Of a DNA stretch of 64,000 bases, positions 40,488 to 57,809 are shown piece by piece. The stretch is from contig CALIUG010000072.1 of NCBI GenBank assembly GCA_938048755.1, positions 3,258-67,257 of the forward strand. Reading direction: 5' to 3'. How positions within the stretch are numbered: position 1 is the first letter of the stretch; every line of letters starts with the position of its first letter. The notes below the pieces were generated by a model that did no database searches, had not been told where the DNA came from, and was given only the letters and a program-made list of their open reading frames with translations. Made by a program: the position numbers and the translations under genes. Origin of the DNA: an uncultured Alphaproteobacteria bacterium (lineage in GTDB: Bacteria; Pseudomonadota; Alphaproteobacteria; SP197).

Positions 40488-41117
40488 ATGACCCAGACAC
40501 GATGGTGGTGGGTGCGCCATGCACCGGTGACCGAAACCAACGGTCGGGTCTATGGCTCGACCGACCCCAATTGCGACACCGACAACCTTCCGGCCTATCA
40601 GGCACTCCACGCCATTCTGCCCGAGGATGCGCACTGGGTGACAAGTCACCTCAGGCGCACCAAGCAGACGGCTGCCGCCATTGCTGCGGCCGGCGGACGC
40701 AACATCGATCCGGCCGAGGAGCCGGGTCTGGGCGAACAGGATTTCGGCGACTGGCACGGCATGACCTATGACGAGATCTATGCCCTGCCGACGGCACGCC
40801 GCTTCTGGCTGGCACCCGCGACCATGCCGGCGCCCAATGGGGAGAGCTTTGCCGATCTGTGTGTGCGTGTCACCCGCGTGATTCACCGGCTGACGGCCGA
40901 ATGGGCAGGACGCGACATCGTTGCGGTTGCCCATGGCGGCACGATTCGCGCGGCACTGGCCCTGGCGCTCGATCTTGATCCCGAGACCGGCCTGCGATTC
41001 CAGACCGACAACATCTCGGTCACCCGGATCGACCATTTCGACGGTGATGACGGCCATGCCGAGAGCTGGCGCGTCACCTATATGAACCGCCAGCCGCATA
41101 TGCCGCCGAAGGAGTAG
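40488..41117 (+). CDS. cobC: alpha-ribazole-phosphate phosphatase (histidine phosphatase family)
   Basis: WWVRHAPV (RHG motif variant), and later AHGGTIRAAL. Positioned between cobS and cobU. RBS aaggaacc. Confidence 0.8.
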   Translation: MTQTRWWWVRHAPVTETNGRVYGSTDPNCDTDNLPAYQALHAILPEDAHWVTSHLRRTKQTAAAIAAAGGRNIDPAEEPGLGEQDFGDWHGMTYDEIYALPTARRFWLAPATMPAPNGESFADLCVRVTRVIHRLTAEWAGRDIVAVAHGGTIRAALALALDLDPETGLRFQTDNISVTRIDHFDGDDGHAESWRVTYMNRQPHMPPKE

Positions 41118-41124
41118 TTTCGCG

Positions 41125-41286
41125 CGTAGCGGCGCTCGCGACTCTCTGCTAAGAACGCTGGAAGTAGGAACGAGACGAGGGAAGCCGGTGTGATGCCGGT
41201 GCTGCCCCCGCAACTGTAACGGTGAGATCCGAAGCGTTGACCCACTGGCAAAGCCCCAAAAGAGGGCAAAGCCGGGAAGGGGCTTC
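41125..41286 (+). promoter_or_regulatory. cobalamin (AdoCbl) riboswitch in the leader of cobU-cobW-cobN-cobO-...
   Basis: AGGGAAGCCGGTGTGATGCCGGTGCTGCCCCCGCAACTGTAACGG is the B12-box/core region. ACCCACTGG is a variant of the GCCACTG element, and GCCGGGAAGGGGC is a variant of the GGGAAGGC element. Spacing and order are correct. cobU RBS GGAGGGAGG follows. Confidence 0.75.
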
Positions 41287-41361
41287 ATGGGATCGTCGAG
41301 CCGAAGCCAGGAAACCTCCCCCGTTCCGCCCTGGACCACGCGCGCCTCGGAGGGAGGTCGG

Positions 41362-41940
41362 ATGTCCGTGAGAGATGCCCAAGATGCGCCCGGAGCGCAG
41401 CCCGACAGGACCACAGGCGGAAATCCGTTCGTGAGTCTGGTGCTGGGTGGCGCCCGTTCGGGCAAGAGCAGCTTTGCCGAGGCCGAGGTTCTGGCGCACG
41501 GCCTGGACTGTCTCTACCTCGCGACCAGCGAAGCCTTCGACAACGAAATGGAAGTGCGTATCGCGCGCCATCGCGAACGCCGTGGTCCCGAATGGACGAC
41601 CATCGAGGAGCCCCTGGCGCTTGCCGACGTGCTGGCGGCGGAATCGGACCCCAAACGGGCGATTCTGGTCGACTGCCTGACCCTCTGGCTCGCCAATCTG
41701 CTGGGCGCAGAACGTGATCTCCCTGCCGAATTCGAACGTCTGGTGCGTGTTCTCGCTGGTGTTGCAGGGCCGGTGGTTCTGGTCTCTAACGAGGTTGGCC
41801 AGGGCATCGTTCCAGACAACGCGCTGGCCCGTCGTTTCCGCGACGAGGCCGGACGTCTTCATCAACAGATCGCTGCGGTGGCCGGCCGCGTGGTTTTTGT
41901 TACCGCCGGCCTGCCTCAAACCCTGAAGGATAAACGATGA
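41362..41940 (+). CDS. cobU: bifunctional adenosylcobinamide kinase / adenosylcobinamide-phosphate guanylyltransferase
   Basis: P-loop LVLGGARSGKSSFAE and the CobU/CobP family signatures. Start MSVRDAQ with RBS ggagggagg. Confidence 0.85.
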   Translation: MSVRDAQDAPGAQPDRTTGGNPFVSLVLGGARSGKSSFAEAEVLAHGLDCLYLATSEAFDNEMEVRIARHRERRGPEWTTIEEPLALADVLAAESDPKRAILVDCLTLWLANLLGAERDLPAEFERLVRVLAGVAGPVVLVSNEVGQGIVPDNALARRFRDEAGRLHQQIAAVAGRVVFVTAGLPQTLKDKR

Positions 41941-42983: not shown

Positions 42984-45900
42984 TGCATCTTCTGGCAGCA
43001 CAGCCCGGCACCGTCAGTGACGGGACCGAAGCGATCGATCTGGGCCAGACGCCCGGTGAGATCGTTGTGCTATCTGCTGCCGATACGGAACTTGCCCTGT
43101 TGTCGGATGCTGCTGCGCTTCAGGGCGAGGATGCGCCGAGCCTGCGCCTGGCCAGCACCATGGCGCTGTCACATAACCTTTCGGTCGATACCTATGTCGA
43201 GGCGATGGTCGCGACGGCACGGGTCGTGGTGGTGCGTCTGCTGGGTGGCGCGGCCTATTGGCGTTACGGGACCGATGAAGTCGCTGCCGCGGCCCGTGCG
43301 AACGGCGTTCACCTGGCGCTTCTGCCCGGTGATGACAAGGAAGACGGCGAACTGCGGCGTCTCTCGACGGTCGGGGATGACGACTATGATCGTCTCTGGG
43401 CCTATCTGATCCACGGTGGGGCGAGAAACGCCGGAAACTTCCTGCGGCACGCCGCCTGTCTTGCCGGTCGGCCGGACGAAGCCGATCTGCCTGAAACCCT
43501 GCCCAGGGCCGGGTGTTACTGGCCGGGCCGCGGCGATGTGGCGCTGGACGAGATTGCGACACTGTGGAAGCCGGATCGTCCCGTTGCAGCCATTGTGTTC
43601 TATCGTGCGCTGGTCCAGGCCAGTGATGTCGCGCCGATTGATGCCCTGGTCGCAGCCCTTGATGAACAGGGCCTCAATGCGCTGCCGCTCTACAGCCAGA
43701 GTCTGAAGGAACAGGCCGGCGCCGCCTTTGTCGAGGAGGCGCTGGGTCTCCATGGACCCGCGGTCATCGTCAACTGCACCGGTTTTGCCCTGGCGAGCCC
43801 CGGTGCCGAGCGTGGACCCACGCCGTTCGATGGTGCGGATTGCCCGATCCTGCAGGCCGTTCTGTCGGGCGGTACGCACGATGCCTGGAACGAGGGGATG
43901 CGTGGCATGGCGCCGCGCGACATCGCCATGAACGTCGCTCTGCCCGAAGTCGACGGGCGCATTCTGACCCGCGCGATTTCCTTCAAGTCGGCACGTAAGT
44001 GGGACGAACGCACCCAGACCAACGTGGTGCGGCATGAGCCGGTGGCGGATCGGGTCATGTGGACTGCCAGGCTGGCGGCAGCCTGGGCGCGGCTCCGCAA
44101 CACGGCGGTATCGGAGCGGCGTGTTGCGCTGGTGATGGCCAACTATCCCAACAAGGATGCGCGGATCGGGAACGGTGTGGGGCTTGATACCCCGGCTTCG
44201 GCGGCCCGGATCCTCCATACTCTGGATTCTGCGGGATACGATGTCTCCGGCGTACCGAAGAATGGTACGGACCTGATTGCCACGCTGCTGGCAGGCCCGA
44301 CCAACGATCTGACACAGCGTGCCTGGAAGCGCTCTGACGTGACGTTGTCCCTGGATCTCTATCACGAACGTTTTGCCGCGCTGCCTGAGGCCGTGCGCGA
44401 GGCCATGACCGAGCGCTGGGGCGCGCCCGAGACGGACCCGCATGTGGCCGAGGGTGCGTTTCAGCTTGCTGTCCACCGCTGGGGAAACGTCGCGATCGGT
44501 GTCCAGCCCGCCCGCGGCTACAACATCGATCCCAAGGCGACCTATCACGACCCCGATCTGGTGCCGCCGCACGGCTACCTTGCCTTCTACATGTGGCTCC
44601 AAAGGGATTTCGGCAGCCATGCGCTTGTCCATCTGGGCAAGCACGGCAATCTCGAATGGCTGCCGGGCAAGGCTCTGGCCCTTTCGGAGGCCTGTTTCCC
44701 TGAAGTCGCCTTTGCCCCGCTGCCCCATCTCTATCCCTTCATCGTGAACGATCCCGGCGAAGGCACACAGGCCAAGCGGCGCACGGCTGCGGTGATCGTG
44801 GATCATCTGACCCCGCCCCTGGCGCGTGCCGAAACCTATGGTGACCTGCGGGATCTCGAAGCCCTGGTCGATGAGTACTTTGAAGCCAGCCACACCGATC
44901 CGCGCCGTCTGCCGATCCTTTCGCGCGACATTCTGGAACTCTGTGCCAGCACCGGTCTTGATCAGGATTGCGGCATCGGCGCCGGTGATGACGAGAACGA
45001 GAAACTCTCAAAGCTCGACGGCTACCTGTGCGAGCTCAAGGAGATGCAGATCCGCGACGGTCTGCATGTCTTCGGTGAGGCGCCGGTGCGTGGGCTGGAA
45101 ACCTCCCTGCTGGTTGCCCTGACGCGGGTGCCGCGCGGTGACGGTTCCGGTGGCGATGCCTCGATCACGCGTGCCCTTGCTGCCGATCTGGGCCTCGATG
45201 TCGATCCGCTTGATGCCGAGATGGCCAAGCCCTGGACAGGTGCGCGCCCAGACGTTCTGGCCGGTCTGTCGGACGATCCCTGGCGCACGGCGGGCGATAC
45301 GGTCGAGCGGATCGAGCTGCTGGCCAGCGCGTTGATGGACGGTTCGCTCGACTGTGACCCCGGCTGGACGGCGACGCAGGCTGTTCTGGATGCGGTCTCA
45401 GGCCATCTGCGTCCCGCCGTGTCGGCCTGTGGTGCACATGAACTTGCCGGGCTGCTCACCGGCCTCGATGGACGCTTTCTCGAACCCGGCCCCTCCGGTG
45501 CGCCGTCGCGTGGCAGGCCCGATGTGTTGCCCACCGGCCGCAACTTCTATTCCGTCGATACCCGTTCGGTCCCGACACCAGCGGCCTGGCGCCTTGGATG
45601 GACCTCGGCCAGCCGTCTGGTGGAGCGTCATGCCCAGGACCATGGCGACTGGCCCAAGGCCGTGGCTCTGTCGGCCTGGGGCACGGCGAACATGCGCACC
45701 GGCGGTGACGACATAGCCCAGGCGCTCGCCCTGATGGGTGTGCAGCCGACCTGGGAGCCACGCAGCGGACGGGTCACCGGTTTTGAAGTCATGCCTTCGG
45801 GTGTGCTGGGGCGTCCCCGGGTTGATGTGACGCTTCGGGTTTCCGGCTTCTTCCGTGACGCCTTCCCCGGCCTGATCGATCTCGTCGACAGCGCGACACG

Positions 45901-46741
45901 CGCCGTGGCGGCGCTGGATGAAGATGACGCCATAAATCCGCTGGCCGCGCGGGTGCGTGGTGAGGCTGCGCGCGCCGCCGATGCGGGTGAGGACAGTGCA
46001 GAGGCCGCCCGACGTGCCGCCACCCGTGTCTTCGGCTCCAAACCCGGCGCCTATGGCGCGGGCCTGCAGGCCCTGATCGATGAAGGCGGCTGGGATCATG
46101 CCGATGATCTGGGCCGGGCCTATGTCGCCTGGAGCGGGTATGCCTATGGCGCAGGCACCGAAGGCAGGGCTGCCCATGACCTGTTCGAGACCCGTCTCTC
46201 CAAGATCGACGCGGTGGTCCACAACCAGGACAACCGCGAACACGACCTGCTCGACTCAGATGACTATTACCAGTTCGAGGGCGGCATCACGGCAGCGGTC
46301 AGGAAGGCGTCAGGCAAGCAGCCGGCGGTCTATCACAACGATCATTCCCGCCCCGACAACCCGACCGTGCGCACGCTGACCGAAGAGATTGCCCGGGTCG
46401 TGCGTGCGCGTGTGGTGAACCCCAAGTGGATCGCCGGTGTCATGCGCCACGGCTACAAAGGCGCGTTCGAGATGGCGGCCACGGTCGATTACCTGTTCGG
46501 CTTTGCCGCCTCGGCACGGTGTGTGGCCAACCATCATTTCGATGCGGTGTTCGATGCCTATCTGGGCGACCCGGAAGTCCGGGCGTTCCTGGAAGAGAGC
46601 AACCCGCATGCCTTACAGGACATTGCTGCCCGCCTGGCAGAGGCGCAGGCGCGGGGTTTGTGGAATCCCAGGCGCAACAGCACAGCGCCCTTGCTGGAAC
46701 AGCTGATTCGAAGAGAACCAAACGAGGAGAAGGTGGCATGA
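42983..46741 (+). CDS. cobN: cobaltochelatase subunit CobN
   Basis: 1252 aa with CobN/Mg-chelatase H-type architecture. Lies between cobW and cobO. Confidence 0.9.
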   Translation: MHLLAAQPGTVSDGTEAIDLGQTPGEIVVLSAADTELALLSDAAALQGEDAPSLRLASTMALSHNLSVDTYVEAMVATARVVVVRLLGGAAYWRYGTDEVAAAARANGVHLALLPGDDKEDGELRRLSTVGDDDYDRLWAYLIHGGARNAGNFLRHAACLAGRPDEADLPETLPRAGCYWPGRGDVALDEIATLWKPDRPVAAIVFYRALVQASDVAPIDALVAALDEQGLNALPLYSQSLKEQAGAAFVEEALGLHGPAVIVNCTGFALASPGAERGPTPFDGADCPILQAVLSGGTHDAWNEGMRGMAPRDIAMNVALPEVDGRILTRAISFKSARKWDERTQTNVVRHEPVADRVMWTARLAAAWARLRNTAVSERRVALVMANYPNKDARIGNGVGLDTPASAARILHTLDSAGYDVSGVPKNGTDLIATLLAGPTNDLTQRAWKRSDVTLSLDLYHERFAALPEAVREAMTERWGAPETDPHVAEGAFQLAVHRWGNVAIGVQPARGYNIDPKATYHDPDLVPPHGYLAFYMWLQRDFGSHALVHLGKHGNLEWLPGKALALSEACFPEVAFAPLPHLYPFIVNDPGEGTQAKRRTAAVIVDHLTPPLARAETYGDLRDLEALVDEYFEASHTDPRRLPILSRDILELCASTGLDQDCGIGAGDDENEKLSKLDGYLCELKEMQIRDGLHVFGEAPVRGLETSLLVALTRVPRGDGSGGDASITRALAADLGLDVDPLDAEMAKPWTGARPDVLAGLSDDPWRTAGDTVERIELLASALMDGSLDCDPGWTATQAVLDAVSGHLRPAVSACGAHELAGLLTGLDGRFLEPGPSGAPSRGRPDVLPTGRNFYSVDTRSVPTPAAWRLGWTSASRLVERHAQDHGDWPKAVALSAWGTANMRTGGDDIAQALALMGVQPTWEPRSGRVTGFEVMPSGVLGRPRVDVTLRVSGFFRDAFPGLIDLVDSATRAVAALDEDDAINPLAARVRGEAARAADAGEDSAEAARRAATRVFGSKPGAYGAGLQALIDEGGWDHADDLGRAYVAWSGYAYGAGTEGRAAHDLFETRLSKIDAVVHNQDNREHDLLDSDDYYQFEGGITAAVRKASGKQPAVYHNDHSRPDNPTVRTLTEEIARVVRARVVNPKWIAGVMRHGYKGAFEMAATVDYLFGFAASARCVANHHFDAVFDAYLGDPEVRAFLEESNPHALQDIAARLAEAQARGLWNPRRNSTAPLLEQLIRREPNEEKVA

Positions 46742-47366: not shown

Positions 47367-48050
47367 ATGAAAGCCGCGCATGGGGTGATCGCACTTCTGG
47401 TTGTTGTCCTCTGGCAGGCTCCCTCGGGTCCCGCCTTTGCTGATGGTGAGCAGGCTGTGGTCGAGGATGCGCATGTCACGGTTGCCGAACTTCTGGCTGA
47501 TCCCGATTTCTCCAACCTGCATGGCCTTCTGGCGCGCGCGCACGGTGTGGTGATCGTCCCGCAGCTCTTCAAGGCAGGCTTCATCATCGGTGGAGAAGCA
47601 GGACGCGCCGTCATTCTGGCGCGTGACCCCAGCAGCGGCGCTTGGAGCCATCCTGCCTTCATGGATATGGCGTCGGCCAGCATCGGTCTGCAGATCGGTG
47701 CTGCCGAAACCCAGCTGGTGCTGGTGATCATGACCCAGGCCGGTATGGAAGCCATGCTCTCGGACAAGATCGAAGTCGGTGCGGATGCTTCGGTTGCCGC
47801 GGGCCCGGTGGGTGCCGCAGCCAAGGCGGCGACGACCTCGACCGAGTTCAACGAGGACATCTATGCCTATGGTACCAGCGAAGGACTGTTCGCCGGGATC
47901 TCCGTAGAGGGTGCGATCCTGATTCCCGATGAGGATGCCAACCACAGCTATTACGGCGAGCCCGTCACGACCCGTGAAATCCTGCAGGGCGATGCCGTCT
48001 GGAACGCCCGGGCAGACGGCTTGCGGGAACTGCTGGAAAGCGTGATCTGA
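47367..48050 (+). CDS. SYLF (DUF500/Ysc84-like) lipid-binding domain protein with signal peptide
   Basis: Signal peptide and the [26 protein letters not shown] core. Embedded between cobO and cobQ on the same strand. Confidence 0.7.
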
Positions 48051-50703: not shown

Positions 50704-51738
50704 ATGAGCAAACTCGCCGTCATGTTGTGTGGCCACGGAAGCCGCGACGAAGGTGCGATCACCGAGTTCGGTGCCATCGCCGAAACCCTCAAGGGCCGGT
50801 TCGACTGGCCCATGGAGTACGGCTTCCTGGAATTTGCCACGCCGATCATCCGTGACGGCCTCGACAAGCTGCGTGACGGTGGTGCGACACAGATCCTGGC
50901 CGTGCCAGGCATGCTGTTTGCGGCAGGCCACGTGAAGAACGACGTGCCGAGCGTTCTCAACACCTATGCCGCGCAAAACGGAGTCGAGATCAAGTTCGGC
51001 AGGGATCTGGGCATCGATACCCGCATGGTGCGCGCGGCCGGTGAACGGGTGAAGGAAGCCATGGCGGCGGCCGATGCCGAACATGGTGTGGTGCCTCCCC
51101 ACGAGACCCTGCTGGTGACCGTGGGGCGCGGTGCATCGGATCCCGACGCAAACTCCAACGTCGCCAAGGTCTCGCGCATGTTGTGGGAAGGCCTGGGCTT
51201 CGGCTGGGGCGAAACGGCCTATTCCGGTGTGACGTTCCCGCTGGTCAAGCCTGCCCTGGAGCATGTCGTCAAGCTTGGCTTCAAGCGTGTGCTGGTGTTT
51301 CCGTACTTCCTGTTCACCGGGATTCTGGTGCGCCGGATCTATGATGCTACCGACGAAGTGGCCGCACAGCATCCCGACATCCAGTTCGTCAAGGCGGGTT
51401 ACCTCAACGATCATCCTCTGGTGGTCGATACCTTTGTCGACCGGGTGCACGAGATTCTCGAAGGCACGGGAAACATGAACTGCCAGGCCTGCAAGTACCG
51501 CGACCAGGTGCTGGGTTTCGAGGCGGAAGTCGGCCTGAAGCAGGAAAGCCATCATCACCATGTCGAGGGTATTGGCACCGGTGAGGGACACAGCCACGAT
51601 CATGATCACGAGCACGCCCATGACCATGCCCACGGGCACAGCCATGATCACGGGCACGGCCGCGACCATGCCGATGGCCACGGTCATCATCCCTACCCCC
51701 ATGCCGACCATCCGCTTGGTCCCAAGACGTTGAAGTAG
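50704..51738 (+). CDS. cbiX: sirohydrochlorin cobaltochelatase, long form (CbiXL) with [4Fe-4S] MxCxxC and a His-rich C-terminal tail
   Basis: Duplicated CbiX domains (LCGHGSRDEGA, TVGRGASDPDANS), NCQACKYR cluster and a C-terminal HDHDHEHAHDHAHGHSHDHGHGRDHADGHGHH tract. Confidence 0.8.
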   Translation: MSKLAVMLCGHGSRDEGAITEFGAIAETLKGRFDWPMEYGFLEFATPIIRDGLDKLRDGGATQILAVPGMLFAAGHVKNDVPSVLNTYAAQNGVEIKFGRDLGIDTRMVRAAGERVKEAMAAADAEHGVVPPHETLLVTVGRGASDPDANSNVAKVSRMLWEGLGFGWGETAYSGVTFPLVKPALEHVVKLGFKRVLVFPYFLFTGILVRRIYDATDEVAAQHPDIQFVKAGYLNDHPLVVDTFVDRVHEILEGTGNMNCQACKYRDQVLGFEAEVGLKQESHHHHVEGIGTGEGHSHDHDHEHAHDHAHGHSHDHGHGRDHADGHGHHPYPHADHPLGPKTLK

Positions 51739-51751
51739 GAGACCCCGGCGC

Positions 51752-53320
51752 GTGCCTCTCTTTGACGCTTACCTGATGGTCGACTGGAGTTCGGAGACGA
51801 AACCCAAGACCGGCAAGGATTCGATCTGGCTGGCGCTTGCTGAGCGCACGCCGGCCGGTCTGCGTCTGCATGCGCTGGAGAATCCCGCGACCCGTGCTGA
51901 GGCACGGGAACGTCTGGCAGACATGCTGGATGGCCTGATCCGGCGCAGGCGGCGGGTCCTGGTCGGTTTTGACTTTCCGTTTGGTTACTCCAGCGGCACG
52001 GCTTCTGCGCTGGGCCTCAAAGGTGCGCCGTGGCGCGCGACGTGGTCCGCGCTGTCGCAGGCCGTGGAAGATCGCCCGGACAATGCCAACAACCGATTCG
52101 AGGCAGCAGACGTTCTGAACCGCCGCATGGGGTTCCGCGAGGGGCCATTCTGGGGCCATCCGGTCGGGCGCAGCTATGCAAATCTGGAGATGACGCGGCC
52201 CGTCTATGACGGCGGCCTGGATGAAAAACGGGTCTGTGAAACCGTGATCTCCGGGCCCCAGTCGATCTGGAAACTGGCCGGTGTCGGTTCGGTAGGCGGC
52301 CAGGTGCTCACGGGTCTGCCGGTCGTCCATGCCCTGCGCCGTGACGCCAGACTGAAAAGCCATGCGCGGGTATGGCCGTTCGAAACCGGTCTGAAGCCCA
52401 TGACATCCGGTGCTCTCAAACAGCATCCGGTTGTGCTGGCCGAGATCTATCCCTCGCTGGTGTCACCGCGTTCGGCGAGCGGGCAGGTCAAGGATACACT
52501 GCAGGTCCAGGCCATCGCCGCATTCATGGCCAAGGCTGATGAGAACAGAACGCTGGGCCGGATGTTCGCGGGCATGAAGGGGTTGTCGGGCGACCAGAAG
52601 CGACGAATCGAGCGTGAAGAGGCCTGGATTCTGGGCGTCACTGAACCTGATACCCGGGCGGGCAAGATCGACATTGATGTCGACGCGGCGTTTCCCGGGC
52701 ATGGCCTTGCCTATCTCAACGACGGTCCAGCAATCTATGCTGAATCACGCCGCCTGATTGAGGCAAAGACCGACCTGTCGCGTCTGACGGACGATGAACG
52801 GGCTCTTGCCGTGCGTCTGATCCATACCTGCGGCATGACCGATATCGCCGATGATCTTGAGGTTTCCGGGGGTGCCGTCGCCAGGGGCCGCGAGGCTCTG
52901 ATCGCAGGCGCGCCGATTCTTTGTGATGTCGAGATGGTGGCTAAGGGCATCATCAAGCGCCGTCTGCCGGCATCCAATGCCATCGTCGCCAAGGTGGCCT
53001 CAAAGGCAGCGGTGGCACGGGCTGCGCGGCATCACACGACCCGGTCCTCGGCAGCGGTTGATCTGTGGGGTGACGCCATGGAGGGTGCCGTTGTCGCGGT
53101 CGGCAATGCGCCCACGGCCTTGTTCCGGGTTCTGGAAATCGTTGCAGCCGGTGGCCCGCGCCCGGCGCTTGTCATCGGCATGCCGGTGGGGTTTGTCGGA
53201 GCAGCGGAATCGAAACGCGCGCTCGCGAAGAGCGGACTCGACTTCGTGACCGTGCACGGGCGACGGGGCGGCAGCGCCATGGCTGCTGCTGGCGTCAACG
53301 CGCTGATGGGAGGAATCTGA
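51752..53320 (+). CDS. cobH: fusion protein: N-terminal roughly 300-aa uncharacterized domain (possibly DUF429/RNase-H-like) plus C-terminal precorrin-8X methylmutase
   Basis: The C-terminal approx 210 aa (from about 52680) match CobH/CbiC (LIHTCGMTD, ILCDVEMVA, GNAPTAL). The N-terminal MPLFDAYLMVDWSSETKPKTGKDSIWLA...VLVGFDFPFGY matches no cob enzyme known to me. Confidence 0.7.
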   Translation: MPLFDAYLMVDWSSETKPKTGKDSIWLALAERTPAGLRLHALENPATRAEARERLADMLDGLIRRRRRVLVGFDFPFGYSSGTASALGLKGAPWRATWSALSQAVEDRPDNANNRFEAADVLNRRMGFREGPFWGHPVGRSYANLEMTRPVYDGGLDEKRVCETVISGPQSIWKLAGVGSVGGQVLTGLPVVHALRRDARLKSHARVWPFETGLKPMTSGALKQHPVVLAEIYPSLVSPRSASGQVKDTLQVQAIAAFMAKADENRTLGRMFAGMKGLSGDQKRRIEREEAWILGVTEPDTRAGKIDIDVDAAFPGHGLAYLNDGPAIYAESRRLIEAKTDLSRLTDDERALAVRLIHTCGMTDIADDLEVSGGAVARGREALIAGAPILCDVEMVAKGIIKRRLPASNAIVAKVASKAAVARAARHHTTRSSAAVDLWGDAMEGAVVAVGNAPTALFRVLEIVAAGGPRPALVIGMPVGFVGAAESKRALAKSGLDFVTVHGRRGGSAMAAAGVNALMGGI

Positions 53321-54525
53321 TGACACCCTGGCTGTCTCTTGTGGGCCTTGGCGAGGATGGACTGGAAGGACTCTCCCCGGCTGCGCGCGAACTGGTTGAT
53401 CAGGCCGAGGTCGTGGTCGGTGGCACGCGCCATCTGGAACTGCTGGGCGAGACCCGGGCGCAGACACTGACCTGGGAAAGCCCGCTCAAGAAAACGGTCG
53501 AGCGCCTGGCTGAACTTCAGGGGCAGAAGGTCTGCGTGCTCGCCACCGGCGACCCCATGGCCTATGGCATCGGTGTCACCCTGATGCGCCGGTTCGGGCG
53601 CGAGGCCGTTTTTGTCCTTCCGGGAATCTCGGCCTTCACCCTGGCCTGTGCCCGGCTGGGCTGGCCGCTTGCCGAGACCGTGCAGCTCACGCTTCATGGT
53701 CGGCCGCTGGACCTGCTGAACGCCCATCTGATGCCGGGTCTGCGCCTGCTGATCCTGTCCGAAGATGCAACAACACCAGCCAAGGTCGCGATGCGGCTCA
53801 AGGAGGCCGGTTTCGGGCCAAGCGTGATGCATGTCCTGTGTCACATGGGTGGTCCCCGCGAACGCTGCCTCAGTGGAACGGCAGCGGAGGGAGTCGAGGG
53901 CGACGTGGACGATCTCAATACCCTGGCGATTGAACTGGTTACCGAGCCCGGCGCTGCCGTGCACGCGCGCACGCCAGGCCTGCCCGATGATGCCTTTGAG
54001 CACGATGGGCAGATGACCAAACGCGAGGTGCGCGCCGCAACCCTGGCAGCCCTTGCGCCGATGCCCGGTCAGTTGCTCTGGGATGTCGGCTCGGGCTGTG
54101 GTTCCGTCGCGATCGAATGGATGCGCGCGGCAGACCGGGCCTGCGCCATGGCCATCGAACGTCATGAAGGCCGGCGGGCCATGACCGCGCGCAATGCGGC
54201 AAACCTGGGTGTACCAACCCTGAAGCTTGTTGCCGGCAGCGCACCGGAAGCCCTGGAAGGCCTGGCCACGCCGGATGCGGTTTTTGTCGGCGGCGGCGTC
54301 GCCGGCGACGGTGTCGCACAGACCTGCTGGGATACCCTTGCGCCGGGCGGACGTCTGGTTGCCAATGCGGTCACGCTGGAAAGCGAGCATGCTCTTTTCC
54401 ATCTCCATGAACGTCTGGGCGGTGAACTTGTGCGTCTCTCGGTTGTACGGGCCGCACCGGTCGGCGGCCTGACGGGATGGCGCCCTCTCATGCCGGTAAC
54501 ACAATGGCGGATCATCAAATCATGA
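53320..54525 (+). CDS. cobL: precorrin-6Y C5,15-methyltransferase (decarboxylating), CbiE+CbiT fusion type
   Basis: N-terminal tetrapyrrole methylase domain and C-terminal class I SAM-methyltransferase domain (VGSGCGSVAIE). Confidence 0.85.
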   Translation: MTPWLSLVGLGEDGLEGLSPAARELVDQAEVVVGGTRHLELLGETRAQTLTWESPLKKTVERLAELQGQKVCVLATGDPMAYGIGVTLMRRFGREAVFVLPGISAFTLACARLGWPLAETVQLTLHGRPLDLLNAHLMPGLRLLILSEDATTPAKVAMRLKEAGFGPSVMHVLCHMGGPRERCLSGTAAEGVEGDVDDLNTLAIELVTEPGAAVHARTPGLPDDAFEHDGQMTKREVRAATLAALAPMPGQLLWDVGSGCGSVAIEWMRAADRACAMAIERHEGRRAMTARNAANLGVPTLKLVAGSAPEALEGLATPDAVFVGGGVAGDGVAQTCWDTLAPGGRLVANAVTLESEHALFHLHERLGGELVRLSVVRAAPVGGLTGWRPLMPVTQWRIIKS

Positions 54526-55229
54526 CCAAAGGAACCCTTTATGGTCTGGGTGTCGGTCCCGGCGATCCCGAGCTCATCACGCTGAAGGCCCATCGACTGC
54601 TGACCCATGCTCCCGTGCTTGCCTATCCGGCACCGGAACATGGTGACAGTCTGGCGCGGAGCATCGTGGCGTCGCATCTGAGCGGCGAGCAGACCGAGAT
54701 TGCGATCCGCATGCCGCTGGACCTGAACCGGTTTCCGGTCGAGGCCGTTTATGATCAGGCAGCGATCGACATTGCCGAACATCTGGATGCCGGACGGGAT
54801 GTTGCTGCGATCTGTGAAGGTGACCCGTTTTTCTATGGCAGCTTCATGTATCTCTTCGGCCGGCTGGCCGACCGGCATGAGGTCGTCGTGGTCCCCGGCG
54901 TCTCGTCACTCATGGCCTGCCCGGCCGCTGCCGGCGCGCCCCTTGCCGCGCGCGACGATGCCCTGCTGATTTGTCCGGGCATCATGGACGAAGCGGTCAT
55001 GCGCGAGCGTCTGGCGAATGTGGAAGCCGCTGTCGTCATCAAGGTCGGCCGTCACCTCGACAAGGTGCGCCGCGTGCTCACGGCGTTGGATCTTGTGGAG
55101 CATGCCCATTATGTCGAGCACGCCACCATGGCCGATCAGGTCGTATTGCCCTTTTCCGAAATCGATGCGGCAAAGGCGCCCTATTTTTCGATGGTGCTGA
55201 TCCATCGGCGTGGAGAGGCATGGCGATGA
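54525..55229 (+). CDS. cobI: precorrin-2 C20-methyltransferase
   Basis: LYGLGVGPGDPELITLKA signature. ATGA overlap with cobL. An alternative start at 54504 is possible. Confidence 0.85.
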   Translation, partial: TKGTLYGLGVGPGDPELITLKAHRLLTHAPVLAYPAPEHGDSLARSIVASHLSGEQTEIAIRMPLDLNRFPVEAVYDQAAIDIAEHLDAGRDVAAICEGDPFFYGSFMYLFGRLADRHEVVVVPGVSSLMACPAAAGAPLAARDDALLICPGIMDEAVMRERLANVEAAVVIKVGRHLDKVRRVLTALDLVEHAHYVEHATMADQVVLPFSEIDAAKAPYFSMVLIHRRGEAWR

Positions 55230-57037
55230 ATGTTCCAACAGGTGCTGCGGTTCTGTGTCTTGGTCCTTCGGGACTAGCTGCTGCGAACCGTCTGGTTGCT
55301 GCCCTGCCTGATGCCAGTCTTCATGGCTATGGGTCACGGGTGGAGGGCACCGATGTGGTGTTCGAGAACACCATGGACCATGTCGCAACGCTGTTTGCGG
55401 CAGGCATTCCGGTCGTGGGCGTTTGTGCCGCCGGCATTCTGATTCGTGCCGTGGCGCCCCTTCTTTCCGACAAGACGCGCGAAAGTGCCGTGGTCGCGGT
55501 GGCCGAGGATGGTGCCAGCGCCGTTCCGCTGCTGGGCGGTCATCATGGCGCCAACGCACTGGCCCGCGCCTGTGCCGGCGTGTTCGAGGGGCATGTCGCG
55601 GTCACGACCGCGGGTGACGTGCGCTTTGATGGCGCGCTGGATGACCCGCCGCCGGGCTGGCGCATCGCCAATCCTGAGATGGCAAAACCGGTGATGGCCG
55701 ATCTGCTGGCAGAAAAGCCGGTTGCGCTTTGCATAGAGGCTGGTGAAGCGGACTGGCTGCGCAACTCCGGCATGGCGTTTGGAGAAACGGGCGATCATGC
55801 CGTTGCGGTGACCGACCGTGCCCTGCGGCCCGATGGCCGGACGCTGGTCATGCATCCGCCGGTCCTGGCCCTGGGCGTGGGATGTGAACGTGACTGTGAG
55901 CCCGGTGAGCTGATCGCCCTGGTGCGCGAAACGCTCAAATCAGAGCGCCTTGCCGAAGGCGCGATTGCCTGTGTCGCCAGCATTGACCTGAAGGGTGATG
56001 AACCAGCCGTGCTGGCCGTTGCCAACATGCTGGGTGTTTCCCTGGTCCTATTCGATGCGCCAAGGCTGGAGGCCGAAGCGCCGCGCCTTGCCAATCCTTC
56101 CGATGTGGTGTTTGCCGAAGTCGGGTGCCATGGCGTCAGTGAGGGGTCCGCGTTGGCCGCGGCGGGCCAGGAGGGTTCGCTGGTCGTGCCCAAGAAGAAG
56201 TCACGGCGTGCCACATGTGCCGTTGCGCGCGCTGCCAAGGATATCGACGTCTCAACGACTGGCCGACGGCGTGGCCATCTTTCGCTGGTCGGTCTGGGTC
56301 CGGGCGATGCAGCCCTGCGCACGCCTGAAGCAAGCCGTGCCATTGCCGCGGCCAGCGATGTCGTGGGTTATGGTTATTATCTCGACCTTGCCGGTCCGTT
56401 GATGCGCGGCAAGGAACGTCATGATTTCGGCCTGGGCCAGGAGACGGAGCGATGCCGTTTCGCACTCGATCTGGCGGGTCAGGGCAGACAGGTGGCGTTG
56501 CTCTGTTCCGGCGATCCCGGCATCTATGCCATGGCCAGCCTGGTCTATGAGCTTCTTGATCTCGAGGACGCACAGCCCTGGCGCAGCGTCGGGATCGACG
56601 TCGTGCCGGGCGTTTCGGCCCTGCAGGTTGCTTCGGCGCGGGCCGGTGCGCCGTTCGGCCATGACTTCTGCGCCATCTCGCTTTCGGACCTGCTGACCCC
56701 ACGCGAGGTCATCATGCGCCGCGTGCGTGCAGCCGGTGAAGGCGACTTTGCCATTGCCTTCTACAATCCTGTCTCCATGCGCAGGCGCGATCAGCTGGCT
56801 GAGGCACGGACCATCCTGCTGGAACACCGGCCCGGCGATACGCCTGTCATGATCGGCCGCCTGTTGGGTCGTGAAGGCGAAGCCATGGCGCATACCACGC
56901 TTGCCGAGCTGGAAGTCGACGATGTCGACATGATGAGCGTGGTGCTGATCGGCTCCAGCACATCCCGGCGGATCAACCATCTCGGCCAGCCCAATGTTTA
57001 CACCCCGCGTGGTTACGCGAAGAAAAGAGAGACCTGA
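55226..57037 (+). CDS. cobJ: fusion: CbiG (N- and C-terminal/CobE-like domains) plus precorrin-3B C17-methyltransferase CobJ
   Basis: aa 1-340 carry CbiG_N (VVGVCAAGILIRAVAPLLSDK...LLGGHHGANALA) and a CobE-like module (LALGVGCER...ASIDLKGDEPAVLAVANMLGVSLVLF). From about 56265 the tetrapyrrole methylase GHLSLVGLGPGD...CSGDPGIY follows. ATGA overlap with cobI. Confidence 0.85.
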   Translation: MNVPTGAAVLCLGPSGLAAANRLVAALPDASLHGYGSRVEGTDVVFENTMDHVATLFAAGIPVVGVCAAGILIRAVAPLLSDKTRESAVVAVAEDGASAVPLLGGHHGANALARACAGVFEGHVAVTTAGDVRFDGALDDPPPGWRIANPEMAKPVMADLLAEKPVALCIEAGEADWLRNSGMAFGETGDHAVAVTDRALRPDGRTLVMHPPVLALGVGCERDCEPGELIALVRETLKSERLAEGAIACVASIDLKGDEPAVLAVANMLGVSLVLFDAPRLEAEAPRLANPSDVVFAEVGCHGVSEGSALAAAGQEGSLVVPKKKSRRATCAVARAAKDIDVSTTGRRRGHLSLVGLGPGDAALRTPEASRAIAAASDVVGYGYYLDLAGPLMRGKERHDFGLGQETERCRFALDLAGQGRQVALLCSGDPGIYAMASLVYELLDLEDAQPWRSVGIDVVPGVSALQVASARAGAPFGHDFCAISLSDLLTPREVIMRRVRAAGEGDFAIAFYNPVSMRRRDQLAEARTILLEHRPGDTPVMIGRLLGREGEAMAHTTLAELEVDDVDMMSVVLIGSSTSRRINHLGQPNVYTPRGYAKKRET

Positions 57038-57038
57038 C

Positions 57039-57809
57039 ATGACGGTTCATTTCATCGGAGCAGGGCCCGGCGCGCCCGACCTCATTACCGTGCGTGCGCT
57101 CAACCTGATCAAGGCCTGCCCGATCGTGCTGTATGCCGGCTCCCTGGTGCCCGAAGGCGTCATTGAACAGGCCGACCCCGCAGCGACGGTGATCGATACG
57201 GCACCGCTCCATCTCGACGAGATCATCGAGCTGATGCGTGAGGCCCACGAACGCGGACAGAATGTGGCGCGCGTCCATTCCGGCGACCCTTCGCTTTATG
57301 GCGCCATTGCCGAACAGATCCGCCGTCTGGACGACCTTGAAATCGACTATGACGTGACGCCGGGCGTGCCGGCCTTTGCCGCTGCGGCTGCTGCCCTGCA
57401 GACCGAGCTGACGCTGCCCGATGTCAGCCAGACCGTGATCCTGACGCGCACGGCCGTGCGTGCGACGGCGATGCCCGAAGGCGAAGACCTCACGACCCTG
57501 GGCAAGTCGGGCGCGACCCTGGCGATCCATCTCTCGGTCAACAACCTGGCCCGCGTCGTGCGCGAACTGGTCCCGCTTTATGGCGAGGATTGCCCCGTGG
57601 TCGTGGCCTATCGCGTGAGCTGGCCCGACCAGGCCTTCATCTCCGGCACGCTGGGCGATATCCGGTCCAAGGTGAAGGCTGCCGGGTTCACACGCACGGC
57701 ACTGATCCTGGTCGGTGAGGTCCTGGGCAATGCGAGTTTCCGTGACAGCCGCCTTTATGACGAGGCCCATCACCACGTCCTGCGGCCACGCAAGGTTGCC
57801 AGTGCCTGA
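57039..57809 (+). CDS. cobM: precorrin-4 C11-methyltransferase
   Basis: MTVHFIGAGPGAPDLITVRA and VHSGDPSLYGA signatures. Confidence 0.9.
   Translation: MTVHFIGAGPGAPDLITVRALNLIKACPIVLYAGSLVPEGVIEQADPAATVIDTAPLHLDEIIELMREAHERGQNVARVHSGDPSLYGAIAEQIRRLDDLEIDYDVTPGVPAFAAAAAALQTELTLPDVSQTVILTRTAVRATAMPEGEDLTTLGKSGATLAIHLSVNNLARVVRELVPLYGEDCPVVVAYRVSWPDQAFISGTLGDIRSKVKAAGFTRTALILVGEVLGNASFRDSRLYDEAHHHVLRPRKVASA

What the first reader, a model, noticed from the sequence alone, without database searches (positions are those of the whole stretch)
51752..52680. Unknown roughly 300-aa domain fused in-frame to precorrin-8X methylmutase CobH
CobH/CbiC is normally a stand-alone protein of about 210 aa. 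Here it is the C-terminal third of a 522-aa protein. The N-terminal part (MPLFDAYLMVDWSSETKPKTGKDSIWLA...VLVGFDFPFGYSSGTA...SIWKLAGVGSVGGQVLTGLPVVHAL...) resembles no cobalamin enzyme I know. The start MVDWS and the FDFPFG pattern are reminiscent of DUF429/RNase-H-like proteins that are occasionally seen in cob clusters. The cluster lacks recognisable cobG/cobZ, cobF/cbiD and cobK in this window. The domain is therefore a candidate for one of the missing or undefined steps in the oxygen-independent-like variants of the late-cobalt pathway.
Basis: partly seen in the sequence, partly recalled or inferred. Interest (0 to 1): 0.65.

Follow-up and report, generated by a model that had tools for sequence, protein, structure and literature searches.

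The report
Unknown RNase-H-like domain fused to CobH
A vitamin B12 enzyme (CobH) here carries a real, conserved extra N-terminal domain from a large uncharacterised nuclease-like family found in both B12 and molybdenum-cofactor operons; it is very unlikely to be one of the 'missing' corrin-ring enzymes.

Summary
ORF 51752-53320 (+) encodes 522 aa, and only aa 328-519 match CobH/CbiC (Pfam E=9e-66). Residues 1-~303 match no Pfam family.

The fusion is genuine. Fused homologues of 498-533 aa occur down to 49% identity, with a linker of variable length. In other genomes the same domain ("X") is a separate gene overlapping cobH, in the same cluster order CbiX-X-CobH-CobL-CobI.

X belongs to a large family (2,855 clusters at 50% identity). 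AlphaFold gives a confident model (pLDDT 95.5) with no significant solved relative. The weak fold hits are all RNase-H-like (RuvC, terminase nuclease, Ppx). Invariant D11/D74/E231/D248 sit where RNase-H-fold enzymes hold catalytic metals. No Cys or His is conserved.

X is also fused to CobL, CbiG_C, MoeA and MobB. In cultured Roseobacteraceae it sits in mobA-mobB-X-moeA operons. It also occurs as an orphan.

Related clusters carry CbiD and CbiJ next to CbiX and CbiG-CbiH, so there is little left for X to replace.

Best reading: a metal-dependent phosphoesterase or nuclease-type accessory of cofactor operons, with unknown substrate. This is interesting as an unassigned cofactor-linked family, not as a CobG/F/K substitute.

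The parts
51752..53320 (+). Whole fused gene (522 aa + stop): N-terminal X domain, linker, C-terminal CobH
   Evidence: ORF list. Fused homologues of 498-533 aa occur at 49-91% identity. 25 of 35 cob-type loci in other species have the same fusion.
51737..51742 (+). Ribosome-binding site (AGGAGA) overlapping the CbiX stop codon, 10 nt upstream of the GTG start
   Evidence: Sequence read directly. That this spacing means translational coupling to CbiX is an inference.
51752..52660 (+). X domain (aa 1-303): uncharacterised family with a predicted RNase-H-like fold. Invariant D11 (51782-84), D74 (51971-73), E231 (52442-44), D248 (52493-95), E290 (52619-21).
   Evidence: No Pfam hit. NCBIfam PRK14495 'unknown domain' part matches at E=1e-44. 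AF2 pLDDT 95.5, pTM 0.94. The only fold hits are weak and RNase-H-like.
52661..52732 (+). Inter-domain linker (aa ~304-327), variable in length and sequence
   Evidence: Indels in this region among 30 fused homologues. pLDDT is 66-69 here and the full-length pTM is only 0.70. In split versions the stop codon of X and the start of cobH fall here.
52733..53308 (+). CobH/CbiC precorrin-8X methylmutase domain (aa 328-519)
   Evidence: Pfam PF02570 E=9.3e-66, covering profile positions 2-194 of 196. NCBIfam NF006136 scores 273.4 bits against a cut-off of 276. The conserved RLIHTCGM histidine (H358) is invariant among fused homologues.
50704..51738 (+). Upstream neighbour: long-form CbiX chelatase with a CxxC motif and a His-rich tail. 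This is the conserved left-hand partner of X.
   Evidence: Pfam CbiX E=1.6e-47 with two matched stretches; translation. CbiX lies immediately upstream of X in 45 of 80 related loci.
53320..54525 (+). Downstream neighbour cobL (CbiE/CbiT-type methylase/decarboxylase). Its start overlaps the stop codon of the fused gene.
   Evidence: Pfam TP_methylase plus a methyltransferase domain; conserved gene order. X is fused directly to a full CobL in P0255.
54477..57809 (+). Rest of the operon: cobI/cbiL (54477-55229), CbiG-CobJ/CbiH fusion (ORF listed 54971-57037; the query from nt 55229 (602 aa) matches the CbiG-CobJ genes of related loci), cobM/cbiF (56994-57809)
   Evidence: Pfam; same gene order in relatives.
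41115..41337 (+). Cobalamin riboswitch at the head of the cobU-cobW-cobN-cobO-Ysc84-cobQ operon of the same supercluster
   Evidence: Rfam RF00174, 78 bits, E=1.6e-17.

Best explanation
The gene encodes a genuine two-domain protein. The C-terminal domain is an ordinary, apparently intact CobH/CbiC methylmutase.

The N-terminal ~300 residues ("X") belong to a large bacterial family that Pfam does not cover. Its predicted fold is a single RNase-H-like core (beta1-beta2-beta3-alpha-beta4 ... beta5-alpha) with a ~150-residue insertion. It keeps an invariant acidic set: D11 on beta1, D74 after beta4, E231 at the end of beta5, D248 on the next helix, plus E290. It also has a Gly-rich GSVGxQ loop at a helix N-terminus, several invariant Arg and Trp residues, a basic pI, and no conserved Cys or His.

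I infer that X is a Mg2+/Mn2+-dependent phosphoryl-transfer enzyme (a phosphodiesterase or nuclease-type hydrolase) distantly related to DUF429-type RNase-H-fold proteins.

X is a recurrent accessory gene of late metal-cofactor assembly operons. In B12 clusters it lies between CbiX and CobH, either as a separate, translationally coupled gene or fused to CobH, CobL or a CbiG_C/CobE-like domain. In Roseobacteraceae it lies between mobB and moeA, free or fused to either.

The fusion to CobH is most simply the loss of a stop codon between overlapping operon neighbours. No fixed inter-domain interface is predicted.

X is not a substitute for CobG/CobZ, CobF/CbiD or CobK.

Shown: the ORF, the fusion, the family, the synteny, the fusion partners and the conserved residues. 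Inferred: the fold class, the catalytic metal centre and the accessory role. Unknown: the actual substrate, which could be a nucleotide-linked cofactor intermediate or a nucleic acid.
For: - ORF and domain limits.
- The fusion is conserved in 29 homologues at 49-91% identity, with an indel-rich linker. 25 fused versus 9 split among 35 cob-type loci.
- Split versions overlap cobH by 8-14 nt in the identical cluster order.
- Among the 80 closest GTDB species loci, 41 are CbiX-X-CobH. Six more are the same arrangement truncated by a contig end or lacking CbiX, and 7 lie next to cobD, cobQ or cobU.
- Other fusion partners are CbiG_C, a full CobL, MoeA and Aldolase_II.
- Moco operons: the metagenomic locus L090 has mobA-mobB-[X-MoeA]. 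Alloyangia pacifica has fdhD-mobA-mobB-[X-Glp]. Ruegeria sp. TM1040 has mobA-mobB-X-glp. That clade is widespread in Roseobacteraceae isolates. NCBIfam PRK14495 is a MobB-X fusion.
- Structure: pLDDT 95.5, pTM 0.94. All weak Foldseek hits are RNase-H-fold proteins: HSV/HCMV terminase nuclease, RuvC, RuvX, Argonaute PIWI, Ppx/GppA.
- D11, D74, E231, D248 and E290 are invariant across cob-linked, Moco-linked, orphan and one 26%-identical member.
- Median pI is 8.8 and there is no conserved Cys/His.
- Literature: DUF429 is placed in the RuvC/terminase clade of RNase-H-like proteins, with conserved acidic residues in strands 1 and 4 and fusions to NUDIX or RelA/SpoT (PMC3985635). A DUF429 domain has reported RNase HII activity, and Rv2228c is an RNase HI-CobC fusion (PMC4429107).
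Against: - No statistically significant structural or sequence match to any characterised protein. The best Foldseek E-value is 0.015, and PDB profile searches found nothing.
- The DUF429 link rests on 2 faint Pfam hits among 103 members scanned.
- Catalysis is inferred only from residue conservation.
- 26 of 80 close relatives have no cob gene within 10 kb. Some orphans sit among toxin-antitoxin or defence-like genes. The operon association could therefore be partly hitch-hiking.
- The full-length model gives no confident domain-domain contact (pTM 0.70), so nothing shows functional coupling to CobH.
- The 80 loci are the ones most similar to the query and are not a random sample of the family.
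Confidence: 0.5

Rival explanations
1. One reading: X is the enzyme for a missing corrin-ring step, a non-orthologous replacement of CobG/CobZ (ring-contraction oxidation), CobF/CbiD (C1 methylation/deacylation) or CobK (reduction).
For: X is a conserved member of the ring-synthesis operon, sitting between CbiX and CobH/CobL. It is fused to the ring-stage proteins CobH, CobL and CbiG_C. No CobG/CobZ-like gene is conserved within 10 kb in 35 related clusters. The window itself lacks cbiD and cbiJ.
Against: - Relatives with the same cluster carry CbiD and CbiJ adjacent to it (14 loci). CbiX plus CbiG-CbiH plus CbiF/L/ET/C then forms a complete O2-independent-type set, which by established pathway knowledge needs neither CobG/CobZ nor CobF.
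- X has no conserved Cys/His for Fe-S or haem, and no Pfam redox or methylase family matches it.
- The predicted fold and acidic centre are those of phosphoryl-transfer enzymes.
- The same family, at 37-58% identity, is found in Moco operons and as orphans in loci with no cob gene nearby.
Confidence: 0.06
2. X is a true nucleic-acid enzyme (an RNase H, R-loop or RNA-processing nuclease) whose presence in cofactor operons is an evolutionary hitch-hike or a regulatory coupling. This would parallel the mycobacterial RNase HI-CobC fusion Rv2228c and the DUF429-RelA/SpoT protein MS_RHII-RSD. It would have no direct role in corrin chemistry.
For: The predicted fold is RNase-H-like with a D-D-E-D pattern and the pI is basic. 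Orphan members carry Zn-ribbon-like tails and sit among ParE, Gp49 and RloB/AAA_21 genes. Orphan and cob-linked members interleave in the tree. There are precedents for RNase H domains fused to B12 or nucleotide enzymes (PMC4429107 and PMC3985635).
Against: X associates with cob genes in several different arrangements (before cobH, cobL or a CobE-like domain, next to cobU, after cobD). It associates separately with mobB/moeA, including fusions on both sides. This is more than expected for a housekeeping nuclease. X matches no known defence or nuclease family (PADLOC and Pfam).
Confidence: 0.22
3. X is a largely non-catalytic adaptor, carrier or metal-insertion accessory. It would dock onto the insertase or chelatase (CbiX, MoeA) and onto product-binding proteins (CobH, CobE-like, MobB) to hand labile anionic cofactor intermediates along a metabolon.
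For: In both pathways the immediate neighbour is often the metal-inserting enzyme: CbiX-X and X-MoeA. The fusion partners are CobH and CbiG_C; from my own knowledge these are intermediate-binding proteins. Many Trp and Arg residues are invariant and the net charge is positive, which suits large polyanionic ligands.
Against: An invariant acidic tetrad in catalytic positions of the fold is not expected for a passive carrier. AF2 predicts no confident interface with CobH. In some loci X occurs without CbiX or CobH nearby. No binding data exist.
Confidence: 0.17
4. The 522-aa ORF is an artefact: a sequencing or assembly frameshift joined two separate genes.
For: Split versions (X followed by an overlapping cobH) exist in related genomes. 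PGAP sometimes annotates only a 248-252-aa CobH within the same protein cluster.
Against: Identical 522-aa architecture is seen in 8 sequences of the 96% cluster from independent sources (NCBI, JGI, ENA, Logan). It is also seen in homologues down to 49% identity from many assemblies, and in 25 of 35 species-level loci. The linker aligns in frame with the C-terminal tail of split X proteins.
Confidence: 0.01

Closest known systems
DUF429 (Pfam PF04250; COG2410/COG4328/COG4923), including the RNase HII domain of M. smegmatis MS_RHII-RSD (MSMEG_5849)
   Same: Predicted RNase-H-like fold of the RuvC/terminase type. Conserved acidic residues at the ends of strand 1 (hhhDWS) and strand 4 (hhGFDFPFG). 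Mostly single-domain proteins with a habit of fusing to small-molecule or nucleotide enzymes (NUDIX and RelA/SpoT for DUF429; CobH, MoeA and MobB here). Sources: PMC3985635, PMC4429107.
   Different: The PF04250 profile does not recognise it: the window sequence gives no hit, and 2 of 103 relatives give E~2e-3 to 5e-3, below the gathering score. X has a ~150-aa insertion between beta4 and beta5 carrying its own invariant motifs (NNRF, PFWG, GSVGxQ, WPFETG). No nuclease activity has been shown. Its genomic association is with B12 and Moco operons.
NCBIfam NF011066 / PRK14495 'putative MobB/unknown domain fusion protein', and Roseobacteraceae proteins named 'molybdopterin guanine dinucleotide synthesis'
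   Same: The 'unknown domain' of that model (positions 167-443) is the same domain as X (E=1e-44). The Ruegeria and Alloyangia members are 37-39% identical to the window's domain and keep all the invariant residues.
   Different: Those proteins sit between mobB and moeA and are fused to MobB or MoeA. Here the partner is CobH and there is no MobB part (153 bits against a cut-off of 596). Neither group has been characterised; the names come from genomic context only.
Rv2228c of M. tuberculosis (RNase HI fused to the CobC alpha-ribazole phosphatase)
   Same: An RNase-H-superfamily domain fused in frame to a cobalamin-pathway enzyme, with no obvious chemical reason for the fusion (PMC4429107).
   Different: That protein has a canonical type-I RNase H domain with demonstrated activity, fused to a nucleotide-loop enzyme. 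Here a very divergent RuvC/DUF429-like domain is fused to a ring-stage enzyme, and the domain is operon-linked across many genomes.
CbiR of Akkermansia muciniphila (AP endonuclease 2 superfamily cobamide phosphodiesterase)
   Same: A precedent for a metal-dependent enzyme from a 'nuclease' superfamily that is encoded next to cob genes and acts on a phosphodiester of the cofactor itself rather than on DNA (PMC7733943). This illustrates the mechanism proposed for X.
   Different: Unrelated fold (TIM barrel), and His/Asp/Glu metal ligands. CbiR has a demonstrated substrate (the AdoCbl nucleotide loop). X has no demonstrated substrate and usually sits among ring-synthesis genes.
Stand-alone CobH/CbiC and the archaeal CbiX-CbiC fusion (NCBIfam NF004449 / PRK05782)
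   Same: The C-terminal domain is a full-length CbiC (196-position profile, invariant His). The chelatase-CbiC neighbourhood is an old one: CbiX directly precedes this gene, and a CbiX-CbiC fusion family exists.
   Different: Here a ~300-aa unrelated domain lies between CbiX and CbiC, and it is this domain, not CbiX, that is fused to CbiC.

Membership tests
CobH/CbiC precorrin-8X methylmutase (PF02570) | Full-length match to the family profile above the curated cut-off | tested here: met
   PF02570 scores 221.7 bits (cut-off 22.5) over profile positions 2-194 of 196, at aa 328-519. The NCBIfam equivalog NF006136 scores 273.4 bits against a cut-off of 276, just below.
CobH/CbiC precorrin-8X methylmutase (PF02570) | Conserved active-site histidine (His43 in the P. 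denitrificans enzyme, cited from my own knowledge of the literature) | tested here: met
   H358 in the motif RLIHTCGM is invariant in all 30 fused homologues. That it is equivalent to the catalytic His is inferred from motif position, not from a structural superposition.
DUF429 (PF04250) | Match to the Pfam profile at or above the gathering score (23 bits) | tested here: not met
   The window domain gives no hit even at E<=10. Only 2 of 103 family members scanned give hits (E=0.0054 and E=0.0023, 18.1 bits), both below the cut-off.
DUF429 (PF04250) | RNase-H-like core with conserved acidic residues in the first and fourth strands (Majorek et al. 2014) | tested here: met
   D11 lies at the end of strand E6-11 and D74 just after strand E69-73. 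Both are invariant across all clades.
RNase-H-like superfamily (RuvC/terminase-nuclease clade) | Significant structural similarity to solved members | tested here: inconclusive
RNase-H-like superfamily (RuvC/terminase-nuclease clade) | Metal-dependent nuclease activity | not testable with these tools
   Needs biochemistry. Only the conserved D-D-E-D(-E) pattern is seen.
ASKHA phosphotransferases (Ppx/GppA, sugar kinases, Hsp70/actin) | Two tandem RNase-H-like subdomains | tested here: not met
   The model has one five-stranded core (strands 6-11, 26-33, 36-43, 69-73, 227-232) plus a mainly helical/coil insertion and no second beta-beta-beta-alpha-beta unit. ASKHA hits in Foldseek cover about 100-160 columns at rmsd 8-12 A. 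The ASKHA PHOSPHATE/ADENOSINE sequence motifs were not checked.
NF011066 / PRK14495 MobB-unknown-domain fusion | Unknown domain plus an N-terminal MobB P-loop domain, scoring above the cut-off of 596 bits | tested here: not met
   Only the unknown-domain part matches (profile positions 167-443, 153 bits, E=1e-44). There is no MobB part. The domain is shared but the architecture differs.
CobG / CobZ / CobF / CbiD / CobK(CbiJ) (the 'missing' ring enzymes) | Sequence-profile match to the corresponding families | tested here: not met
   Pfam and NCBIfam scans of aa 1-316 return none of these. CbiD and CbiJ queries taken from relatives do not hit the window.
CobG / CobZ / CobF / CbiD / CobK(CbiJ) (the 'missing' ring enzymes) | Cofactor-binding features: Fe-S/sirohaem or flavin site, SAM-binding fold, NADPH Rossmann fold | tested here: not met
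   No Cys or His column is conserved; the highest is Cys162 at 59%, and no other Cys or His column exceeds 56%. No Pfam redox, methyltransferase or nucleotide-binding family matches.
Known anti-phage defence proteins (PADLOC-DB) | Match to a defence-system model | tested here: not met
   No meaningful hit for the window domain or for five orphan or extended members. The single hit is Cas1 at E=0.0085, 13 bits, which is noise.

The most novel reading that the evidence does not exclude
X is a previously unrecognised enzyme shared by the vitamin B12 and molybdenum-cofactor pathways. It would be an RNase-H-fold phosphoryl or nucleotidyl transferase or hydrolase acting on a nucleotide-linked or polyanionic cofactor intermediate. 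Possible roles include assisting or proofreading metal insertion and hand-off at CbiX/CobH and at MobB/MoeA. That would add a new, unassigned step or quality-control activity to two textbook pathways.
Probability: 0.2. Interest if true: 0.85.

Novelty: new variant of a known kind. Interest (0 to 1): 0.6.

Why it matters
The B12 and Moco pathways are regarded as essentially fully assigned. Even so, a family of about 2,900 sequence clusters with a confident predicted structure sits inside both kinds of operon and has no Pfam family, no solved structure and no function. It is repeatedly fused to pathway proteins: CobH, CobL, a CobE-like domain, MoeA and MobB.

Public annotations currently hide it under misleading names such as 'CbiG', 'precorrin-8X methylmutase' and 'molybdopterin guanine dinucleotide synthesis'.

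Defining its activity would either reveal an accessory or quality-control step common to two metal-cofactor assembly lines, or give a second, much broader example (after Rv2228c) of RNase-H-type domains coupled to cofactor metabolism. It also matters for B12 pathway engineering with alphaproteobacterial genes and for scoring pathway completeness in metagenomes.

Cultured Roseobacteraceae (Ruegeria sp. TM1040, Phaeobacter, Alloyangia) carry the Moco-linked form as a separate gene, so the question can be tested genetically.

Tried and rejected
- Frameshift artefact: rejected, because the fusion is conserved across many independent assemblies and species.
- Known cobalamin enzyme in disguise: Pfam, NCBIfam and PDB sequence-profile searches were negative.
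- Defence protein: PADLOC was negative.
- ASKHA kinase or Ppx-like enzyme: only one RNase-H-like core is present.
- B12-riboswitch control of orphan copies: none was found in 7 orphan loci.
- Fixed CobH-X interface or substrate channel: the full-length AF2 model gives pTM 0.70 with a low-confidence linker, so there is no support.
- Separate 'cob-type' and 'orphan-type' subfamilies: the NJ tree interleaves them, apart from one orphan clade whose titled members are Caulobacterales.
- Bridging to DUF429 through a distant Azospirillum homologue and nine other divergent members: no PF04250 hit.
- Literature: searches for DUF429 with cobalamin, CobH fusions, mobB/moeA hypothetical proteins, and RNase H-like with cofactor terms found no description of this family.
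- Neighbours of X in the cobD- or cobU-adjacent loci could not be annotated further.
Full report
**1. Observation**

The window contains an ORF at 51752..53320 (+) with a GTG start, encoding 522 aa. A GGAG Shine-Dalgarno sequence lies 10 nt upstream and overlaps the stop codon of the preceding CbiX gene. The deduced N-terminus (MPLFDAYLMVDWS) coincides with the N-termini of homologues.

Pfam recognises only CbiC/PF02570, at aa 328-519 (E=9.3e-66, profile 2-194 of 196). Residues 1-316 match no Pfam family even at E<=10. Its end coordinate (52680, aa 310) falls in the inter-domain linker.

The only library hit for the N-terminal part is NCBIfam NF011066/PRK14495, 'putative MobB/unknown domain fusion protein'. 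The match is to the 'unknown domain' half, positions 167-443, at E=1e-44.

**2. The fusion is real**

A search with aa 1-309 finds more than 3,745 proteins. They include 498-533-aa proteins carrying PF02570 at 49-96% identity and many ~300-aa stand-alone proteins. The closest cluster (96% identity) has eight 522-aa members from independent NCBI, JGI, ENA and Logan sources.

In an alignment of 30 fused proteins both domains are well conserved. The segment between them (aa ~304-327) varies in length and sequence, as expected for a linker.

In L004 and L006 the domain is a separate 316-321-aa gene whose end overlaps the start of a 207-211-aa cobH by 8-14 nt. The gene order there is identical: cobN-cobO-(Ysc84)-cobQ-cobD(-)-CbiX-X-cobH-cobL-cobI-cbiG/cobJ-cobM. 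Among 35 cob-type loci from different species, 25 have the fusion and 9 the split form. A frameshift artefact is excluded. The fusion is best seen as loss of a stop codon between overlapping operon neighbours.

**3. Genomic setting in the window**

Positions 38.5-57.8 kb form one cob supercluster:
- cobT(-), cobS and a His-phosphatase
- a cobalamin riboswitch (41115-41337, 78 bits)
- cobU, cobW, cobN, cobO, a Ysc84-domain gene, cobQ, cobD(-)
- long-form CbiX with a CxxC motif and a His-rich tail
- X-CobH, cobL, cobI, a CbiG-CobJ/CbiH fusion, cobM

tblastn with CbiD and CbiJ from relatives finds nothing in the window. No CobG- or CobZ-like domains were seen in the other large ORFs.

However, 14 related loci carry CbiD and CbiJ within 10 kb; in L004 they lie on the opposite strand downstream of cobM, and the two query genes were confirmed by Pfam. 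With CbiX, CbiL, CbiG-CbiH, CbiF, CbiD, CbiJ, CbiET and CbiC, those clusters encode an essentially complete oxygen-independent-type ring pathway. From established pathway knowledge, that route needs no CobG/CobZ or CobF. Little is left for X to replace. In this genome cbiD and cbiJ presumably lie elsewhere.

**4. What the domain is**

An AlphaFold2 model built on 73 homologues is very confident (pLDDT 95.5, pTM 0.94). Its elements are:
- strands 6-11, 26-33 and 36-43, helix 48-64, strand 69-73
- a ~150-residue, mostly helical or coil insertion
- strand 227-232 and helix 247-264

This is the beta1-beta2-beta3-alpha-beta4...beta5-alpha order of the RNase-H-like fold.

Foldseek against PDB and BFVD gives no significant match; the best E-value is 0.015. 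Every weak hit of any consistency is an RNase-H-fold protein: herpesvirus and phage terminase nuclease domains, RuvC, RuvX, Argonaute PIWI, RNase HI, and the ASKHA proteins Ppx/GppA and hexokinase. PDB sequence-profile searches return nothing.

The following residues are invariant across cob-linked, Moco-linked, orphan and one 26%-identical member:
- D11-W12-S13 at the end of beta1
- G72-x-D74 after beta4
- E231 at the end of beta5
- D248 at the start of the next helix
- E290-x-W292
- R48, R160, W134, and G182 and G188 of a GSVGxQ loop at a helix N-terminus

The D/D/E/D positions are those used for two-metal-ion catalysis in RuvC-like enzymes. No Cys or His is conserved. The family is basic, with a median pI of 8.8; the window's domain has pI 9.6.

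Majorek et al. place DUF429 in the RuvC/terminase clade, with conserved acidic residues in strands 1 and 4 and with fusions to NUDIX or RelA/SpoT domains (PMC3985635). A DUF429 domain in M. smegmatis MSMEG_5849 is reported to have RNase HII activity (PMC4429107).

PF04250 itself does not recognise this family. Only 2 of 103 members scanned give sub-threshold hits, at E 2e-3 to 5e-3. I therefore do not file X as a DUF429 member. It is a separate, very divergent RNase-H-fold family.

**5. Where else the family occurs**

An exhaustive profile search finds 2,855 representatives (50% clusters) at E<=1e-3 and 1,028 at E<=1e-30.

Among the 80 GTDB species loci most similar to the query (a biased sample):
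- 41 show CbiX-X-CobH
- 6 show the same arrangement truncated by a contig end or lacking CbiX
- 7 have X next to other cob genes (after cobD/cobQ, or directly beside cobU)
- 26 have no cob gene within 10 kb

The largest conserved neighbourhood among these orphans covers 11 loci, mostly titled Caulobacterales, Caulobacteraceae, Hyphomonadaceae or Hyphomonas. There X lies between an NADP-dependent oxidoreductase and a MatE transporter. No B12 riboswitch was found in 7 orphan loci.

Other orphans carry a C-terminal Zn-ribbon-like tail or an N-terminal helical extension. They sit among ParE, Gp49 and RloB/AAA_21 genes, but they match no PADLOC model.

Besides CobH, the fusion partners are a CbiG_C/CobE-like domain (P0182, P0218), a complete CobL (P0255), MoeA (P0263) and a class II aldolase (P0234).

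The MoeA fusion is not an oddity:
- The metagenomic locus L090 reads mobA-mobB-[X-MoeA].
- The Alloyangia pacifica plasmid reads fdhD-mobA-mobB-[X-Glp/MoeA].
- The Ruegeria sp. TM1040 megaplasmid reads mobA-mobB-X-glp, with X a separate 270-aa 'hypothetical protein'.
- This clade is widespread in cultured Roseobacteraceae, where NCBI names it 'molybdopterin guanine dinucleotide synthesis' or 'MobB/unknown domain fusion'.

In an NJ tree the cob-linked and orphan members interleave at 45-58% identity. This argues for a single shared biochemistry across contexts.

**6. Relation to CobH within the protein**

The full-length model keeps both domains confident (mean pLDDT 90.8). The linker drops to pLDDT 66-69 and pTM falls to 0.70. 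No fixed inter-domain geometry is predicted, so nothing indicates a shared active site or a channel. The CobH domain keeps the invariant RLIHTCGM histidine and looks functional.

**7. Interpretation**

Best-supported reading (confidence about 0.5 overall): X is an RNase-H-fold, Mg2+/Mn2+-dependent phosphoryl-transfer enzyme of unknown substrate that has become a recurrent accessory gene of late metal-cofactor assembly operons.

My estimates for the separate steps are:
- fold class: about 0.8
- genuine functional link to cofactor biosynthesis: about 0.6
- catalytic phosphoesterase or nuclease chemistry: about 0.45

The functional link rests on multiple different arrangements and fusion partners in two pathways. 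The proposed chemistry rests only on conserved residues.

Two substrate classes remain open. One is nucleotide-linked or polyanionic cofactor intermediates. CbiR is a precedent: a nuclease-superfamily enzyme that hydrolyses the cobamide nucleotide loop (PMC7733943). The other is nucleic acid (RNase H or R-loop type), with Rv2228c (RNase HI-CobC) and MS_RHII-RSD as precedents for unexplained fusions. A mainly non-catalytic adaptor or carrier role beside the metal insertases CbiX and MoeA is a third possibility.

- the fold and residue chemistry are wrong for oxidation, methylation or hydride transfer
- sister clusters already encode CbiD and CbiJ
- the same family serves in Moco operons
- the family occurs in loci with no cob gene nearby

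**8. Novelty and value**

I found no paper describing this family. Databases know it only as an 'unknown domain' or under names borrowed from neighbouring genes.

It is not a new fold class. It is an unrecognised, large and well-defined family tied to two supposedly completed cofactor pathways, and it can be tested genetically in cultured Roseobacteraceae.

I rate interest at 0.6 and novelty as a new variant of a known kind: an RNase-H-like domain in a new, cofactor-operon context.

**9. Limits**

- The 80 loci are the closest relatives, not a random sample of the family.
- Whole-genome pathway content of organisms with orphan X could not be examined.
- No activity or binding can be established computationally.

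Noticed in passing
window 50704-51738 together with 41937-46741: The same supercluster encodes a long-form CbiX chelatase (CxxC motif and His-rich C-terminal tail, normally the early cobalt-insertion route). It also encodes CobW and CobN (the late, ATP-dependent cobalt-insertion route). This mixed gene set is conserved in dozens of related alphaproteobacterial clusters. Which chelatase feeds the pathway is unclear.
   Followed up: partly
window 47367-48050 (also L004 3028-4404, two copies): A Ysc84/SYLF-domain protein (Pfam PF04366, 'Las17-binding actin regulator') is encoded inside the cob operon between cobO and cobQ. It recurs at the same place in many related clusters. It has no known role in B12 synthesis.
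   Followed up: partly
window 41115-41337 (+): A cobalamin riboswitch (RF00174, 78 bits) lies upstream of cobU. The mechanically listed cobU ORF (from 41287) overlaps it, and the Pfam CobU match begins at aa 51 of that ORF, so the true cobU start probably lies downstream of 41287. No riboswitch reached threshold in front of the CbiX-X-CobH operon.
   Followed up: partly
window 54971-57037 (+): CbiG (N, mid and C domains) is fused to a CobJ/CbiH-type methyltransferase in one ORF. The same fusion is present in relatives (606-619 aa in L004 and L006). CbiG is a hallmark of the oxygen-independent route.
   Followed up: partly
L018 12881-14611 and 11 other loci (those checked are titled Stellaceae or unclassified Alphaproteobacteria): A 576-aa PMT-like (dolichyl-phosphate-mannose protein mannosyltransferase family) membrane protein is inserted between cobL and cobI in these cob clusters. 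This is an unexpected passenger gene.
   Followed up: partly
P0014, P0108, P0062-P0067, P0294 onward (public protein records): Stand-alone members of the X family are publicly named 'cobalamin biosynthesis protein CbiG', 'precorrin-8X/cobalt-precorrin-8 methylmutase' or 'molybdopterin guanine dinucleotide synthesis'. These names appear to be transferred from fusion partners or neighbours and are misleading.
   Followed up: partly
P0128, P0131 (same 90% clusters as P0005 and P0007): In some MAGs NCBI annotates only a 248-252-aa 'precorrin-8X methylmutase'; these sit in the same 90%-identity protein clusters as the 522-aa fused proteins, presumably called from an internal start. The X domain would then be invisible in those records.
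   Followed up: no
L087 8001-9179, L089 8001-9395, L001 10001-10903: Orphan X genes carry extra tails: a CxxC...CPxC Zn-ribbon-like C-terminus or a ~100-aa helical N-terminus. They lie among ParE and Gp49 toxin genes, RloB/AAA_21 and AbiEii genes, which looks like variable or defence-type islands. None matches a PADLOC model.
   Followed up: partly
L030, L039, L048, L057 and 7 other loci (11 in all, mostly Caulobacterales/Hyphomonadaceae), around position 10000: In these 11 loci X is always flanked by an NADP-dependent enone-type oxidoreductase (ADH_N_2/ADH_zinc_N) upstream and a MatE efflux transporter downstream. No cob or Moco gene and no B12 riboswitch is nearby.
   Followed up: partly
window 5894-6997 (-): An RtcB RNA ligase gene (Pfam E=1.9e-119) is present far upstream of the cob supercluster. 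It is unrelated to the finding.
   Followed up: no
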